A stretch of DNA of 37,235 bases from a virus (taxonomy: Duplodnaviria > Heunggongvirae > Uroviricota > Caudoviricetes), in IMG/VR virus record IMGVR_UViG_2563366903_000020. One strand, given 5' to 3'. This document shows, piece after piece, positions 1,291-10,200 of the stretch. Position 1 is the stretch's first letter. Each line of letters starts with the position of its first letter. Made by a program: the position numbers.

Positions 1291-4200
1291 TAATACCCAA
1301 TTTTTCTGAATCTAAAAAGCGCCTGCGGGCGGTTTTTGCATGAGATTAATTAACTGAAAATAAAAGGGATTTATTTTCAGGTGTCCATATAATGTCCATC
1401 TTTGAAACAAAAAAGCCCGCAGTTTTTACGCTACGGGCTTTGTTTTTCTTTGTGACTTGCGTGTGAGGGTGCTACTTTCGACCGAACCTTTGGCAACCGG
1501 ATAGCGGGGGCTTTCACCCCCGCTGCGGTTTCTTACGGTTTACACTGCAAGAACGCCGCAAATTCTGACCACATGATGTTAAGTCTGAACTCACACGGCG
1601 AACGGTGTATCATCCAGATGGCCAACAACATGGTTAAGCATAAAATGCTCACGATGATCGTTTTTTGCGGCATAGCGCTTGACTCCTTTTACAGGGAGGC
1701 GCTAACCTTCCACTTGTCTAGGGTAGGAATGGTCAGGGCCTCGGGTTAAACAATATGTTTGACTCGGGGCCTTTTCACATCCGGCCTTCAGGTAATCCTT
1801 CCAGCCGTCAGCCGAAAGGCACCCACGTGTAATCTACTGATTTCCCTTTGTGCGCGCAATGCTCAGTGTTGAAACTGTTTAGGGGGAGGGCGGCAAAAAA
1901 GCCCGCATATTGCGGGCAAATACGTCTGTAATCCAATGGAGAAAGGGGTGCCATATCGACTGAACCCGACAACCGGATAGCGGGGGCTTTCACCCCCGCT
2001 GCGGTTTCTTACTGTTTACACTGCAAGAACGCCGCAAATTCTGACCACATGATGTTAAGTCTGAACTCACACGGCGAACGGTGTATCATCCAGATGGCCA
2101 ACAACATGGTTAAGCATAAAATGCTCACGATGATCGTTTTTTGCGGCATAGCGCTTGACTCCTTTTACAGGGAGGCGCTAACCTTCCACTTGTCTAGGGT
2201 AGGAATGGTTAGGGCCTCGGGTTAAACAATATGTTTGACTCGGGGCCTTTCCACATCCGGCCTTCAGGTTTTCCTTCCAGCCGTCAGCCGAAAGGCACCC
2301 GCGCGTAATGTACTGGTTTTAAAGCCATACCGCAATCCTCCAGTTGTAGCGTTAACTGACTGCGTCCCTGATGGGATTTGCGCATTGTCTCCCGTGGAAT
2401 ATCTTTATCGTGGAAGATCAACTGAGGCTGGCCAATAATTCTGTGCACACTTTCCATTGTTGAAAATGTGGCGCTGCACTCAAGGTTATTGCACTGATAG
2501 TATTTGTAGCGGATGGTGCCGGTATCATTGGCGGCTTTACTGGTACGGATCCGGGCAGATGCGCCGCAGAATGGACAATGAAACATTGATATACCCCCCT
2601 GGCTGAACTGGGGTTGAACTCGTCGCCATTCTAACCATTGCTTTCCTTTTCGGCTATCCACTCGGGTATTCTTGCCTCCAGTTCAAGCCTTGTGGTGAAG
2701 CCGCTTCCGTCGATATTGTGTTCCACTTTTGCAATGAGCCAGTCCTGATTGTCTATTTCGGTTTTAAAGCCGGTTACCGTGCCATGCATTTCAGGGTAAA
2801 GCTCCGCTCTGCCCCGGGCCAGCGTGATGGAGAATTCAGCCGCACCGCGCTGTAATTGCTGCCACCTGGCGGCAGCTGCGCGCTGTGCAGCAATTTCATT
2901 TGGGTAGGTTTTTCTCAGAACGAACACGTTACCTTCTGCCCCCTCCATGTAGCTGCCTTCCCGGCTGCTGCTCTTTTCAGCGTGAGTTTTTCGTTTTTTT
3001 ATGTTGACGGCTTTCTTTTTGCCATGATTCAAATCCAGCCAGTACGCCTTCACCCCTGTGTATGCCTGGCGATCGGCTATTCTGAACTGGTGACTGTCTC
3101 CGTCACTGCGTGCCAGTGCAAATGAGGGGAGTGGGCGCCCGTCAGCTGTCACGCCGCCACCCGGCAGAATGAACAGCAGACAGCCATTTTTGACGGTAGT
3201 GATGGCTCCCAGCATATCAGCCATGCGGGTAAGGAATGACATGTCGCTTTCTTCCGTCTGGTCGGCATGATCGATTTCAATATCCATAAGCATATCGCTT
3301 ATCTGGGCTTTCAGTCCGTAACGGTGGGCAATAGCGGAAACCACGCGTTCAACAGTCACGTCGTGCCAGGATACTTCCCGTTTGACGTTAAATTCCTCCC
3401 TGAAGTCTGCGCTGTTTGCACTCAGTGTCAGCCGATCCGGAGGTCCTTCATGAGCGACCTCATCAACAATGTAGGTGCCTTTATCAACCAGAGGCTCTCC
3501 CTTCCATCCCAGCATGACTCTGATGTGTGTTCCCCGCCCGGGGAGAGCCAGCTGCCCGTCGGCATCATCCAGCACAAGAGTGACCCTGTCTGCTTCAAAC
3601 CCCCGGTTGTCTGTCATGGAAAGCGATATCACCCGGTTATTCAGTTCCTGAAGAGTGTTTTTATCCTGCTCCCTGTCCAGTGAAACGCTGAAATCAGGCA
3701 TTTTCACCAGTTCTTTCAGGGGGGAATAAACCGTGTTACCGTTCAGCAATACCATAATTCCTCCGTTTTTCCCGCCACAGTTGCATACCAGAAACACCAC
3801 CGGAATGAGTTTGGGTTGTATGTGTATTGCGAGAAACCGCAGTTCGTGAAAAAGCTCCCCGTGTTCGTAAAGATCTCTGCTGAACTCACACCAATGCAGG
3901 GTGAATAATATGGCTGAAACCCGTTTCCATGGCGTGCGGGTCCGGGAGAATGCGGATCTGGTCACGGCCATTAATGATATTGACTCCAGTGTGATTGGTA
4001 TCGTGGCTGTTGCTGATGATGCTGATACAAAAACATTTCCGCTGGATAAGCCGGTGCTCCTGACGCGTGTCATGGATGTGCTGGGTAAGGCCGGAAAAAC
4101 CGGCACGCTGTATAAAAGTCTGAAAGCTATTGCCGATCAGGTCAGCACCAGAGTTGTTGTGGTGCGGGTTGCTGCTGCGAAGGAGGGGGATGGTCAGCCG

Positions 4201-7200: not shown

Positions 7201-10200
7201 TCGTAACATGGGGCTGACAGGGTCGGAAACCATGACGCTCCTTGCGGATATGGCGCAGCAGGGGAAGTTTGCGCTGGATAAAACCGGCGATGCCATCAAG
7301 GAGTTCAGTATTCGCGGCTCCGATATGTCAAAGGCGAGTGCTGAAGCGTATGCGCTTATCGGGCTGGATGCAGCCAGGATGTCATCGGCTGTAGCCAGTG
7401 GTGGAACGGCTGCACGGGCTGCGCTGCAGAAAACAGCCTCGGGTCTGTTGCAGATCGTCGATCCGGCTGAGCGGGCCAATGCGGCCATCGCACTTTTTGG
7501 TACACCGGTTGAAGATCTGTCTGTCGATCAAATCCCTGCCTTTCTTGGCGCGCTGGCGCGGGTGTCTGACCGTATGGCTGACGTGTCTGGTGTGGCGGAC
7601 CGGATGGGGCAAACCCTGCGTGACAATCTGAGTGGTGATGTGGCGCGGCTTACCGGGACGTTCAGCGCGCTGAGAAGTGGGATTATCGGGGAGATTACGG
7701 ACGATCTGCGTGGGCTTGTCCGGATGGCCACAGCGTGGGGTGAGCGTCTGCAGGCGTGGGTGAATGCGCATCCGGAACTGGTGCGAATGATTGCGCTGAC
7801 GACGGGAGCGGTGCTGGCGTTAACCACAGCGATGGGGGCGTTGTCCGTTGCGGCCTGGATGGTTGTCGCACCGTTACTGAAACTGCGTCTGGGGCTTGCC
7901 CTGCTTCGCGCGATCCCGGCCGGACTCTCCGTTGCCGGTACGCTGTTTGGCGGACTGACGGGTGTGATTTCAGCCGTGGGGGCTGCGCTTGGGGCGCTGA
8001 CCTGGCCGGTTGTGGTGGCGGTGGGAGCCCTGGTCGGTGGTGCTCTGCTGGTCTGGCGCTACTGGGATCGGGTCAGGGCGTTTGTGAGCGGATTTATTGA
8101 AGGGGTACAGTCAGCACTGGCGCCCTTCATGGCGACAGCCTCCCGTTTTGCGCCGCTGCTGGATCTGGTTTCAGGGGCACTGTCCCGTATTCTGGGATGG
8201 TTTAAATCCCTGTTAACGCCGGTCTCCTCCACGCGTGATTTGCTTGAGCAGTGCACCTCTGCCGGGCAGATGTTCGGGAGTACTCTGGCCGGTGCGTTAG
8301 CCACGGTTTTTTCGCCCCTGAAAGCTCTGATTGACGGTCTGGCGTGGGTGCTGGAAAAACTCGGTGTTCTGCCCGGTGAAGCTGAGCGGGTTAAGCGAAA
8401 ACTGGATGAGGCCCGTAAAACGCCGGTGGCGTGGGAGTGGGATCCGGAACAGAAAAAAATGGTTCAGAAGGCGTGGCACTGGTCGCCTCCTGGTGGGGCC
8501 AGTGTGCCTTCCGGCGCCTCCGGTACACAGCCTCCGCCGGTGGCGCTCCCTGCGGGGATAGCGCCGGACGGTAACCGTAACGTTCTCCGTCACCTGAAAG
8601 GCATTGAGGGGAATACCGGTGGTCTGCTGGCTGAAAACCGTAAACGTATCGGACCCGGAGATATTGTGTTTAAACATCTTCCACGGGCGCTGGCGGTCCG
8701 GGGGCAGTGGCATGAACCTGTCGTTGCGCCGTCTTCCGGCGGAATGCGCGCGCTGCCACAGGAGGAGATTCAGGTGCAGCAATGGCCGACGGCACGCCCG
8801 GCGCCACGAATGCACCAGCAGGAAACCTTCGCCAGCGCCTTTCAGGGGGAGATACATGTGCATCTTCACGGGGTGAGTTCGCATAATCCCCGGGAACTGG
8901 CGCGCATGGTTGGTGACGCTGTCAGGGCGGAAATGAACAGAATGGCACGTGCCGGAACCGGCAGCTTCCGCGATCGCGACTGAGGTGAAAAAGATGATGA
9001 TGATTTATGGGATGTTTGTGTTTCAGTTAAGTACCCTGCCGCATCAGCAGGTGGAACAGAGTAAACGCTGGCGACACGTCAGTAATGAACGGGTTAACCG
9101 TTCATCCTCCTGGCAGTATATTGGCTCTGGTGAAGATCACATCACGATGTCCGGTGTGCTCTGTCCGGAAATCACCGGCGGGGAGGTGTCACTGACAGCC
9201 CTGAACACCCTGGCCTACACAGGATTACCCTGGCCACTGATTGATGGTGTCGGACAGATTTACGGGATGTATGTCATTACGGAAATCAGGAGCACCCGTC
9301 AGGAGCTGGATCGCTATGGCATGGCCCGCAAAATTGAGTTCACTGTCAGCTTTCAGCGATGCAATGAAGATCTGCGTGAGCGTCTTCAGTCGGGCTCGGT
9401 GGGTGATCTGATGGCAGGATTAAAAAACAGCGCGTCGTCGGCCCTGTCGTCGGCGTCCTCTGCGCTGTCTGGTCTCATGTTGTGAAGGTCACTGTTCAGG
9501 CTTCGGCTTCTTTTCCCCAGCCAACCTTATAGTCCAGAATCGCCGCCGTATCGTTCAGGGCGGCGATCTCTTTTTTCATGTTACGCTGGCGAATGTGAAT
9601 TTCCATCCCTTTGGCAAACAGGGCTTTTGCGGCTGCATCGCTGAGGGCAATCAGCTCATCAGCAGAAACAGGAACATCGTTGTTCTGTGCATCAGTCCAG
9701 AAAAAATCCAGCGGCAGGATCCCCGCTTTTGCGGCAGCAACGGAAGGCTCAAGGCGGGCCTGCGTTGACTTCCCGTAGTCCCATTTCCGGCCGTTATGTT
9801 CAAAGGTGTAACTCGCCGCTTCCATCGCATTACGCCAGGTGTTGATTTCGTCGTTTTTCAGGCGTCTGGCGTTTTCCCTGTCAGTGTCGTTTTCCTGGTA
9901 TTCAGATACAGGGCCGTGATTTCCTGCTTTCAGTTCGCCCCAGAGTTTTTTGCCGTGTGGCGAGTTGTCATATTCGGTTGCCGTATAGGGCAGCCAGCTC
10001 TCCTCCCCTTCAAACTGGATCTCACAGTCGATAGTGCCGTCACGGTTATAAGCGGCATTTCTTGCTGATTTGATTGTGTGCATGAGTCTCTCCGTCAGGC
10101 AATGCGCTCAAATATTCCGATTCCTGCGCCTGCATAAATGTCAGCGCAGGCCCGCCACGTGCCCGGTGGCCTGCGGTTTGTGTTCCAGTTTTGCATGGAT

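What the first reader, a model, noticed from the sequence alone, without database searches (positions are those of the whole stretch)
2631..9495. Sheath-tube-E/E'-tape measure-U block is inverted relative to D-ogr
In P2 the genes FI, FII, E, T, U, D and ogr run in one direction. Here FI-U are on the plus strand, diverging from D-ogr on the minus strand across a 154-bp intergenic region (3756-3909) and converging on the tail-fibre gene G with only 10 bp between U and G stops. D and ogr must therefore have their own promoter, and the usual Z/fun cargo slot between G and FI does not exist. I could not find a convincing TGT-N12-ACA late-promoter element by eye in 3756-3909.
Basis: partly seen in the sequence, partly recalled or inferred. 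Interest (0 to 1): 0.5.

Follow-up and report, generated by a model that had tools for sequence, protein, structure and literature searches.

The report
Inverted tail-gene block, standard in P88-like phages
The sheath-to-U tail-gene block of this E. coli P2-like prophage really is flipped relative to phage P2, but this is the fixed, normal gene order of a large group of P88-like phages of enterobacteria, and one conserved activator site between D and FI probably drives both diverging operons.

Summary
FI, FII, E/E', T and U (3910-9485) lie on the plus strand. The D|FI gap is 154 bp, and 10 bp separate the U and G stop codons.

It is not a misassembly or a private rearrangement. Twelve complete E. 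coli genomes carry the same 8 kb. The same order is annotated in four ICTV genera of Peduoviridae: Xuanwuvirus (P88, phiSM), Novemvirus, Reipivirus and Senquatrovirus. In 80 species-level genome loci, all 60 with D at least 56% identical are inverted. All 20 with D at most 51% identical have the P2 order.

TGT-N12-AGA at 3817-3834 is the most conserved element of the gap. It sits 84.5 nt from the FI start codon, against 82.5 nt in P2. P2's own pF box is also one mismatch from consensus (TGT-N12-CCA). A -10-like hexamer lies at the same distance on both sides of the box, and only in the inverted clade.

I infer one Ogr site serving divergent pF and pD, as annotated for P2 pO/pP. ogr also keeps its own -10 (TAGAAT). 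This is ordinary biology with a modest regulatory insight.

The parts
2284..2586 (-). ogr, late transcription activator (Ogr/Delta zinc finger, 100 aa)
   Evidence: Pfam PF04606, E=7e-16. PGAP calls it an 'ogr/Delta-like zinc finger family protein' in the identical prophage.
2628..2633 (-). Candidate -10 hexamer (TAGAAT) of an ogr-specific promoter, overlapping the D stop codon
   Evidence: Relaxed sigma-70 scan. A TAGAAT, TAAAAT, CATAAT or TATACT hexamer is conserved at the same place upstream of ogr in P88, phiSM, T5282H, ST16phi5.4, SEN4 and IMG/VR relatives. It corresponds to the annotated P2 ogr -10. Function is inferred.
2631..3755 (-). D, tail/baseplate hub protein (374 aa)
   Evidence: Pfam Phage_GPD and PHROG 52, E=2e-151. 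79% identical to P88 gpD. A GGAGG ribosome-binding site lies at 3760-3764.
3777..3782 (-). Predicted -10 hexamer of pD (AACTGT). The predicted transcription start is near 3770.
   Evidence: It sits at index 64-69 from the box, the same register as the P2 pO/pP -10 elements. An nAnnnT hexamer occupies this register in 35 of 41 distinct-spacer relatives, against a background of 1.8. It is absent from the P2-order outgroups. Inferred, not mapped.
3817..3834 (.). Ogr-type activator box TGTatgtgtattgcgAGA (GTTGT-N12-AGAAC), centre 3825.5. Proposed to be shared by divergent pD and pF.
   Evidence: It is the most conserved element of the D|FI gap. A box of this type is present in 86 of 86 segments and 55 of 60 species loci, with highly variable spacers. 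The remaining 5 loci have AGG or symmetric TCT/AGA variants. The distance to the FI ATG is 84.5 nt, against 82.5 nt in P2.
3869..3874 (+). Predicted -10 hexamer of pF (AAAGAT). The predicted transcription start is near 3881.
   Evidence: It has the same register as the P2 pF -10 relative to its mapped start site. nAnnnT occupies this register in 39 of 41 distinct-spacer relatives.
3910..5097 (+). FI, tail sheath
   Evidence: Pfam Phage_sheath_1, Phage_sheath_1C and Gp18_domIII_N; PHROG 23.
5097..5606 (+). FII, tail tube
   Evidence: Pfam Phage_tube, E=5e-48.
5654..6201 (+). E (5654-6043) and E' (-1 frameshift at TTTTTTC 5986, extending to about 6201), tail assembly chaperones
   Evidence: PHROG 103. 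The slippery site and the -1 frame ORF were found. PGAP annotates a 'GpE family phage tail protein' at the equivalent of 6064-6201.
6191..8983 (+). T, tape measure protein
   Evidence: Pfam PhageMin_Tail and PHROG 28. The start codon follows PGAP.
8994..9485 (+). U, tail protein
   Evidence: Pfam Phage_P2_GpU, E=6.5e-39.
9486..9495 (.). 10-bp gap between the convergent stop codons of U and the G-like gene
   Evidence: Sequence. The same gap is present in PGAP-annotated strain LZSFT34.
9539..9576 (+). Candidate intrinsic terminator of the FI-U operon: a 9-bp G+C-rich stem (9539-9547 / 9559-9567) followed by T6 at 9571-9576. It lies inside the 3' end of the G-like gene.
   Evidence: RNA fold and sequence. 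Inferred.
9422..9467 (-). Weak candidate terminator of the V-G operon (CAGCGC/GCGCUG stem followed by U6), lying inside the 3' end of U
   Evidence: RNA fold with z = -1.9. Weak, inferred.
9496..10083 (-). Tail fibre assembly gene in the position of P2 G (DUF4376)
   Evidence: Pfam DUF4376 and PHROG 1141.

Best explanation
The window holds an intact P2-like (Peduoviridae) prophage integrated next to serS in E. coli. It belongs to the P88-like clade.

In the common ancestor of this clade, the segment from the pF activator box to the end of U was inverted once, and the inversion became fixed. The order changed from G | pF-FI-FII-E-T-U-D-ogr to G | U-T-E-FII-FI-pF | D-ogr. The inversion cut D off from pF.

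D is now expressed from a new leftward late promoter, pD. pD uses the same dyad-symmetric Ogr box (3817-3834) as the rightward pF. The box centre lies about 55 nt from each predicted transcription start, with mirror-image -10 hexamers on the two sides. This is the architecture annotated for the divergent P2 pO/pP pair.

ogr keeps its own sigma-70-type promoter at the D/ogr boundary, as in P2, and is probably also read through from pD. The two convergent late operons end with terminators embedded in each other's last gene.

Shown: the gene order, its fixation across the clade, and the conservation of the box and of the two -10-like elements. Inferred: Ogr binding, the transcription start sites, bidirectional activation and terminator function.
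For: Gene identities and coordinates.

Not an assembly artefact:
- 12 complete E. coli genomes carry the 8-kb region colinearly at 94% identity or more.
- IMG/VR contig L007 is 100% identical in D.

Same order elsewhere:
- It is annotated in P88_4B11, phiSM, phiT5282H, ST16-OXA48phi5.4 and SEN4.
- P88 and phiSM are active phages (PMC5285337, PMC6456863).
- All 80 IMG/VR relatives are inverted.
- In 80 species-level loci the order splits perfectly by D identity: 60 of 60 at 56% or more are inverted, and 20 of 20 at 51% or less are colinear.
- The outgroups RE2010 and EtG are colinear.
- The divergent D|sheath junction is seen in most of 1,492 matching E. coli genomes out of 5,426, judged from spread sampling.

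Promoter model:
- The P2 record annotates one activator site for pO and pP, with start sites 55.5 nt either side of the box centre.
- The window box at 3817-3834 is conserved in position while its spacer varies.
- An nAnnnT hexamer occurs at offset 64 in 39 of 41 sequences on the pF side and 35 of 41 on the pD side, against backgrounds of 2.6 and 1.8.
- The pD-side hexamer is missing in P2-order outgroups (1-2 of 14).
- The window's own O|P gap has a single exact GTTGT-N12-ACAAC box at comparable distances from both start codons.
- The ogr -10 is conserved.
- Terminator candidates.
Against: - No transcript mapping or binding data exist for any member of this clade in the literature I could search.
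- The window's own pD hexamer (AACTGT) is the weakest of the set. The window also lacks the (CG)n tract found upstream of the pD -10 in most relatives.
- The box has an AGA rather than an ACA half-site.
- Relatedness among the sequences inflates the conservation counts, although spacers and flanks are highly diverged.
- The minus-strand terminator candidate is weak (z = -1.9).
Confidence: 0.8

Rival explanations
1. The inversion is an assembly artefact of this one sequence.
For: None found. It is raised only because the order differs from P2.
Against: - Identical order in 12 independent complete E. coli genomes.
- Identical order in PGAP-annotated strain LZSFT34.
- The same order in 80 IMG/VR contigs, 60 species-level genome loci and five isolated or induced phages.
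Confidence: 0.01
2. FI-U is a programmed invertible segment, flipped back and forth by a site-specific invertase of the Gin/Cin/Hin type, which many relatives encode next to U.
For: A DNA invertase gene lies about 30 bp from the U stop in P88, phiSM and roughly half of the IMG/VR relatives.
Against: - The window has no invertase.
- There are no inverted repeats at the block ends.
- None of about 146 clade loci shows the other orientation.
- In relatives the invertase sits with alternative tail-fibre C-termini, the usual shufflon arrangement.
- In the colinear outgroup RE2010 an invertase remnant occupies the same position after G.
Confidence: 0.02
3. The inversion is real and clade-wide, but the box at 3817-3834 serves only pF. 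D is transcribed from a separate Ogr-independent promoter, or from a second unrecognised activator site.
For: - The window's pD -10 (AACTGT) is poor.
- An alternative TATGCA hexamer lies 5 nt further upstream.
- A conserved (CG)n tract near pD in most relatives hints at additional regulation.
Against: - There is only one box-like dyad per gap.
- The D-side hexamer is locked to the same offset from the box as the pF hexamer in 35 of 41 sequences.
- It appears only in the inverted clade.
- The distance from the D ATG to the box centre is held mostly at 69.5-71.5 nt in five of the six sequences measured (SEN4 76.5).
- P2 provides a precedent in the shared pO/pP site.
Confidence: 0.17

Closest known systems
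Escherichia phage P88 and Citrobacter phage phiSM (Peduoviridae, genus Xuanwuvirus)
   Same: - The order is identical: H, G | U, T, E', E, FII, FI | D, ogr, with a divergent D|FI gap of about 157 bp.
- The box has the same position and form, TGT-N12-AGA.
- A hok/mok-type gene follows ogr.
- D is 77-79% identical.
   Different: - Nucleotide similarity is only about 73% over about 19% of the genome, so the window prophage is not in that genus.
- P88 has a DNA invertase and a tail-fibre shufflon between G and U, where the window has 10 bp.
- The fibre genes differ.
- The window carries a NanS-p-like esterase cargo gene and two hok copies.
Enterobacter phage phiT5282H (Novemvirus), Klebsiella phage ST16-OXA48phi5.4 (Reipivirus), Salmonella phage SEN4 (Senquatrovirus)
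   Same: - The same inverted FI-U block and divergent D|FI junction.
- A conserved box and -10 elements on both sides.
- SEN4 has the exact TGT-N12-ACA.
   Different: - D is 60-72% identical.
- The G|U junction contents differ: a gap of about 150-200 bp in two of them, and a DUF262 gene plus another gene in ST16phi5.4.
Bacteriophage P2 (Peduovirus) late gene cluster and its pO/pP divergent late promoters
   Same: - The same gene set (FI, FII, E/E', T, U, D, ogr) and the same Ogr-type box about 83 nt upstream of the FI ATG.
- P2 pO and pP share one annotated activator site, with start sites 55.5 nt either side of it. This is the design proposed here for pD/pF.
- An ogr-specific -10 lies between D and ogr.
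   Different: - In P2, FI-U-D-ogr are colinear and D is read from pF.
- Z/fun lies between G and FI.
- D is only 47-48% identical.
Salmonella phage RE2010 / Fels-2 type (Felsduovirus) and Erwinia phage EtG (Eganvirus)
   Same: They are the nearest D relatives outside the inverted clade, at 48-50% identity. They are enterobacterial P2-like phages with ogr after D.
   Different: They have the colinear P2 order, with invertase or cargo genes between G and FI.

Membership tests
P2-like phage (Peduoviridae) tail/late gene module | Homologues of FI (sheath), FII (tube), E, T (tape measure), U and D, plus an Ogr/Delta zinc-finger activator | tested here: met
   Pfam and PHROG hits for every gene.
P2-like phage (Peduoviridae) tail/late gene module | E/E' tail chaperone pair made by a -1 frameshift at a slippery heptamer | tested here: met
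   TTTTTTC at 5986 with an open -1 frame containing a WPP motif. PGAP annotates a GpE family ORF there. The frameshift itself was not shown experimentally.
P2-like phage (Peduoviridae) tail/late gene module | P2 gene order with FI-FII-E-T-U-D-ogr on one strand | tested here: not met
   FI-U are on the plus strand and D-ogr on the minus strand. Compare P2.
P88-like clade with inverted FI-U block (Xuanwuvirus, Novemvirus, Reipivirus, Senquatrovirus and related prophages) | Divergent D|FI junction, with U converging on the tail-fibre genes | tested here: met
   Window. Clade.
P88-like clade with inverted FI-U block (Xuanwuvirus, Novemvirus, Reipivirus, Senquatrovirus and related prophages) | The D protein groups with the clade (at least 56% identity within it, at most 51% to colinear phages) | tested here: met
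   79% to P88, 71% to T5282H, 60% to SEN4, 47-50% to P2, 186 and RE2010.
Genus Xuanwuvirus | Genus-level nucleotide similarity over the genome. The roughly 70% ICTV convention is from my own knowledge. | tested here: not met
   The best phage match is P88, at about 73% identity over only 19% of 24.9 kb, and 8% of the 10-kb tail region.
Ogr/Delta-dependent late promoter | A dyad of the TGT-N12-ACA type centred about 55 nt upstream of the transcription start | tested here: inconclusive
   TGT-N12-AGA at 3817-3834 has one mismatch, as do the P2 pF and pO/pP boxes (TGT-N12-CCA). Its position relative to the FI ATG matches P2 (84.5 against 82.5 nt). The start site has not been mapped.
Ogr/Delta-dependent late promoter | A -10-like hexamer at a fixed distance from the box, without a -35 | tested here: met
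   AAAGAT (pF) and AACTGT (pD) lie at offset 64-69. This register is conserved in 39 of 41 and 35 of 41 relatives.
Ogr/Delta-dependent late promoter | Transcription depends on Ogr and on the RNA polymerase alpha C-terminal domain | not testable with these tools
   Needs reporter assays, in vitro transcription or rpoA mutants.
Site-specific invertible DNA segment (Gin/Cin/Hin/Pin type) | Inverted-repeat crossover sites at both ends and an adjacent invertase gene | tested here: not met
   No inverted repeats at 3756-3909 against 9486-9495. The window has no invertase homologue.
Site-specific invertible DNA segment (Gin/Cin/Hin/Pin type) | Both orientations found among closely related genomes | tested here: not met
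   All clade loci have one orientation.

The most novel reading that the evidence does not exclude
A single palindromic Ogr box became a bidirectional late promoter as a consequence of the inversion. The breakpoint left D about 70 nt from the upstream side of the pF box, and a mirror-image -10 element then evolved there. It is present in the inverted clade and absent in colinear outgroups. On this reading, the dyad symmetry of a class-I-type activator site is what allowed a 5.6-kb inversion through an essential late operon to survive and become fixed across prophages of more than 20 enterobacterial genera. I found no paper that describes this. It would be a clean natural example of promoter capture by inversion.
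Probability: 0.6. Interest if true: 0.35.

Novelty: new member of a known kind. Interest (0 to 1): 0.2.

Why it matters
The practical value is for annotation and comparative work. An FI-U block flipped against D-ogr should not be flagged as a misassembly or a rarity in enterobacterial P2-like prophages. It is a clade marker that separates P88-like phages from P2, 186 and Fels-2-like phages. In the species-level sample it splits perfectly at 51-56% D identity.

The regulatory inference is a testable small addition to the P2 late-transcription model. It proposes one Ogr box serving divergent pF and pD, mirroring P2 pO/pP. It also explains how an essential gene (D) survived being cut off from its operon.

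Tried and rejected
- Exact TGT-N12-ACA search over the window: 8 hits against 9 expected by chance, and none in the D|FI gap. The strict consensus proved too narrow, because P2's own boxes miss it.
- The generic sigma-70 and terminator scan of 2000-10300 found nothing useful at either junction. Its loop limit of 8 nt missed the 11-nt-loop hairpin at 9539-9567, which folding later found.
- Inverted repeats at the block ends, as expected for an invertible segment or a recent recombination scar: none convincing.
- Literature: full-text searches and reading of the P88, SEN4/SEN5, C. rodentium prophage and 'Global genomic diversity of P2-like viruses' papers found no statement about the inversion or about divergent D/FI promoters.
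- A late-promoter box upstream of R or V in the window: only chance-level one-mismatch hits at unsuitable distances, so not pursued.
- The apparent 470-bp 'insertion' in three E. coli matches is an alignment offset caused by the tandem hok repeat, not a difference at the junctions.
- Rfam found nothing in the finding's interval.
- I did not survey non-enterobacterial Peduoviridae (Vibrio, Pseudomonas, Burkholderia and others) for independent inversions.

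
Full report
**What is there**

The window starts in E. coli serS (1-1293). It then runs through a complete P2-like prophage whose far end is the integrase gene (36228 onward). Within the finding's interval, Pfam and PHROGs identify the following genes:
- ogr (2284-2586, minus strand)
- D (2631-3755, minus)
- FI sheath (3910-5097, plus)
- FII tube (5097-5606, plus)
- E (5654-6043, plus)
- T tape measure (plus; ends at 8983)
- U (8994-9485, plus)
- a DUF4376 tail-fibre-assembly gene in the place of P2 G (9496-10083, minus)
- H (10095-11435, minus)

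E carries a TTTTTTC slippery site at 5986 with an open -1 frame, the E' extension. PGAP gene calls in an identical prophage of strain LZSFT34 match these coordinates. They give a 154-bp D|FI gap and a 10-bp U|G gap (sequence). In P2 the genes FI, FII, E, T, U, D and ogr are all on one strand.

**Is it real and is it unusual?**

It is real.
- Twelve complete E. coli genomes carry the 8-kb region colinearly at 94-99.6% identity.
- An IMG/VR contig has an identical D gene in the same context.

It is not unusual. The same order, H-G | U-T-E'-E-FII-FI | D-ogr, is annotated in four ICTV genera of Peduoviridae:
- Xuanwuvirus: P88_4B11 and Citrobacter phage phiSM
- Novemvirus: Enterobacter phage phiT5282H
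- Reipivirus: Klebsiella phage ST16-OXA48phi5.4
- Senquatrovirus: Salmonella phage SEN4

P88 forms plaques and phiSM is spontaneously active (PMC5285337, PMC6456863), so the arrangement is functional.

All 80 IMG/VR relatives of the D protein have the inverted order. I then made a species-dereplicated scan of bacterial genomes with a D alignment. The gene order splits perfectly by D identity:
- All 60 loci with D at least 56% identical to the window are inverted. Their hosts include Escherichia, Salmonella, Citrobacter, Klebsiella, Enterobacter, Kosakonia, Serratia, Pantoea, Erwinia, Brenneria, Pectobacterium, Symbiopectobacterium, Edwardsiella, Hafnia, Yersinia, Photorhabdus, Xenorhabdus, Providencia and Morganella.
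- All 20 loci with D at most 51% identical are colinear like P2.

The nearest annotated outgroups, RE2010 (Felsduovirus) and EtG (Eganvirus), are colinear. A blastn search with the junction itself (3300-4400) found matches in 1,492 of 5,426 complete E. coli genomes. About 24 of the 30 evenly spaced rows listed show a colinear D-plus-sheath match.

The simplest reading is one ancient inversion that defines a large clade. The colinear sheath-tube-chaperone-tape measure-U-D order is shared with Mu-like phages and R-type pyocins (my own knowledge), so the inversion is the derived state. That condition is met. The window's own lineage is a rarer and more distant member: 12 genomes, with P88 as the closest isolated phage at about 73% identity over 19% of the genome.

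**The late promoter**

There is no exact TGT-N12-ACA in the gap. However, P2's own annotated activator sites are not exact either. Both pF and the pO/pP site read TGT-N12-CCA.

An alignment of the D|FI gap from five reference phages and the window shows that the best-conserved element is TTGT-N12-A(G/C)AA. In the window this is TGTatgtgtattgcgAGA at 3817-3834.

One such box is present in all 86 segments from reference phages and IMG/VR, 54 of them unique. The spacers are completely different between lineages, and several lineages have the exact ACA. The box is also present in 55 of 60 species-level loci, always 74.5-88.5 nt upstream of the FI start codon. The remaining five loci have TGT-N12-AGG or, in Providencia, a symmetric TCT-N12-AGA. 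By my own calculation, about 0.01 such boxes per locus would be expected by chance in that 16-nt range.

In the window the box centre is 84.5 nt from the FI ATG. In P2 the distance is 82.5 nt, and the mapped pF start lies 57-59 nt from the box centre.

**How D is expressed**

The P2 record annotates a single activator binding site for the divergent pO and pP promoters. Their mapped start sites are each 55.5 nt from the box centre. I anchored all sequences on the box and looked for a minimal -10 pattern (nAnnnT).
- On the FI side it occurs at offset 64-69 in 39 of 41 sequences with distinct spacers. The mean over other offsets is 2.6.
- On the D side it occurs at the same offset in 35 of 41. 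The mean over other offsets is 1.8.

This is the register of the -10 elements of P2 pO and pP, and within one base of that of pF. In colinear outgroups the side of the pF box facing away from FI lacks the element: 1-2 of 14. The hexamer is therefore a derived feature that came with the inversion.

The D ATG lies 69.5-71.5 nt from the box centre in the window and four of the reference phages, and 76.5 nt in SEN4. It is preceded by a strong ribosome-binding site.

For the window this gives:
- pF: -10 AAAGAT at 3869-3874, start near 3881.
- pD: -10 AACTGT at 3782-3777, start near 3770. This is the weakest hexamer of the set.

The window's own O|P gap shows the same design: one exact GTTGT-N12-ACAAC box (22381-22398), 81.5 nt from the probable O start and 74.5 nt from the probable P start.

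I therefore propose that one Ogr box activates pF and pD bidirectionally. This is an inference from comparative sequence. No transcript or binding data were found.

**ogr**

A TAGAAT hexamer overlaps the D stop codon (2633-2628). It is conserved (as TAGAAT, TAAAAT, CATAAT or TATACT) at the same place in all relatives examined, and it corresponds to the annotated ogr -10 of P2. ogr thus keeps its own promoter, as it must to start the late cascade. It can also be read through from pD, giving the same positive feedback that P2 obtains from pF.

**The convergent junction**

Only 10 bp separate the U and G stop codons.
- Folding finds a G+C-rich 9-bp hairpin followed by T6 on the plus strand at 9539-9576, inside the 3' end of the G-like gene.
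- A weaker hairpin followed by U6 lies on the minus strand at 9467-9422, inside the 3' end of U.

If these work as terminators, the two late transcripts overlap by about 150 nt.

In relatives this junction is not empty.
- P88, phiSM and about half of the IMG/VR relatives have a DNA invertase and alternative fibre segments there.
- ST16phi5.4 has a DUF262 gene and another gene.

The variable slot after G therefore persists in the clade. This prophage simply has the most compact version. Its cargo lies elsewhere: a NanS-p-like esterase at 15305-17371, and two hok loci after ogr.

**Rivals**

- Misassembly is excluded by the cross-assembly evidence.
- A programmed invertible segment is not supported. 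There are no flanking inverted repeats, the window has no invertase, and all clade loci show a single orientation.
- The remaining live alternative is that D has an Ogr-independent promoter and the box serves only pF. The locked mirror geometry argues against it, but only experiments can settle it.

**Verdict**

The arrangement is the normal one for a large, already catalogued group of P2-like phages, so the finding as stated is ordinary. I did not find the inversion or its regulatory consequence discussed in the accessible literature. The shared-box pD/pF model is therefore a small, testable addition.

Noticed in passing
window 1494-1793 and 1970-2269: A tandem duplication (99% identical, 476-bp period) of a hok/Gef-type toxin locus lies between serS and ogr. 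PGAP annotates two Hok/Gef family proteins in the identical prophage of strain LZSFT34. P88_4B11 has a single 'MokW-like host killing' gene in the same place after ogr. The plus-strand 58-aa ORFs listed there are probably spurious; the hok genes are on the minus strand.
   Followed up: partly
window 15305-17371 (-): A 688-aa cargo gene lies between the lysis genes and R. Its domains are DUF1737, SASA (sialate O-acetylesterase) and DUF6645, resembling the NanS-p esterases of Stx phages (that resemblance is from my own knowledge). It accounts for the many megablast hits of the window to Stx-converting phages.
   Followed up: partly
window 30862-30949 (-) and 30985-31059 (-): Rfam gathering-score hits to the C4 antisense RNA (82 bits) and the isrK Hfq-binding sRNA (67 bits) lie side by side in the early region of the prophage.
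   Followed up: no
window 22300-22470: The O|P divergent gap has a single exact GTTGT-N12-ACAAC box at 22381-22398. The longest-ORF starts are probably wrong: O more likely starts at 22308 (homology with P2 O, GGAG ribosome-binding site) and P at 22464.
   Followed up: partly
relatives, D side of the D|FI gap (e.g. L001 about 21950-21975; L116-L124): Most members of the inverted clade have an alternating (CG)4-5 tract immediately upstream of the predicted pD -10. The window lineage lacks it. Its function is unknown.
   Followed up: no
L128 and L138 (Providencia), D|FI gap: The box is a symmetric TCT-N12-AGA (GGTTCTC...GAGAACC) instead of TGT-N12-ACA. Both half-sites carry the change that P88-like phages have on one side only. 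This suggests the clade's Ogr homologues accept G/C at the centre of the half-site.
   Followed up: no
L090 (contig titled Vagococcus sp. WN89Y): A contig attributed to a Gram-positive Vagococcus carries a P88-like prophage with D 78% identical to the window's. This is most likely contamination or a mislabelled assembly.
   Followed up: no
window 9422-9576: Candidate terminators of the two convergent late operons lie inside each other's last gene. If they work, the FI-U and V-G transcripts overlap as antisense for about 150 nt.
   Followed up: partly
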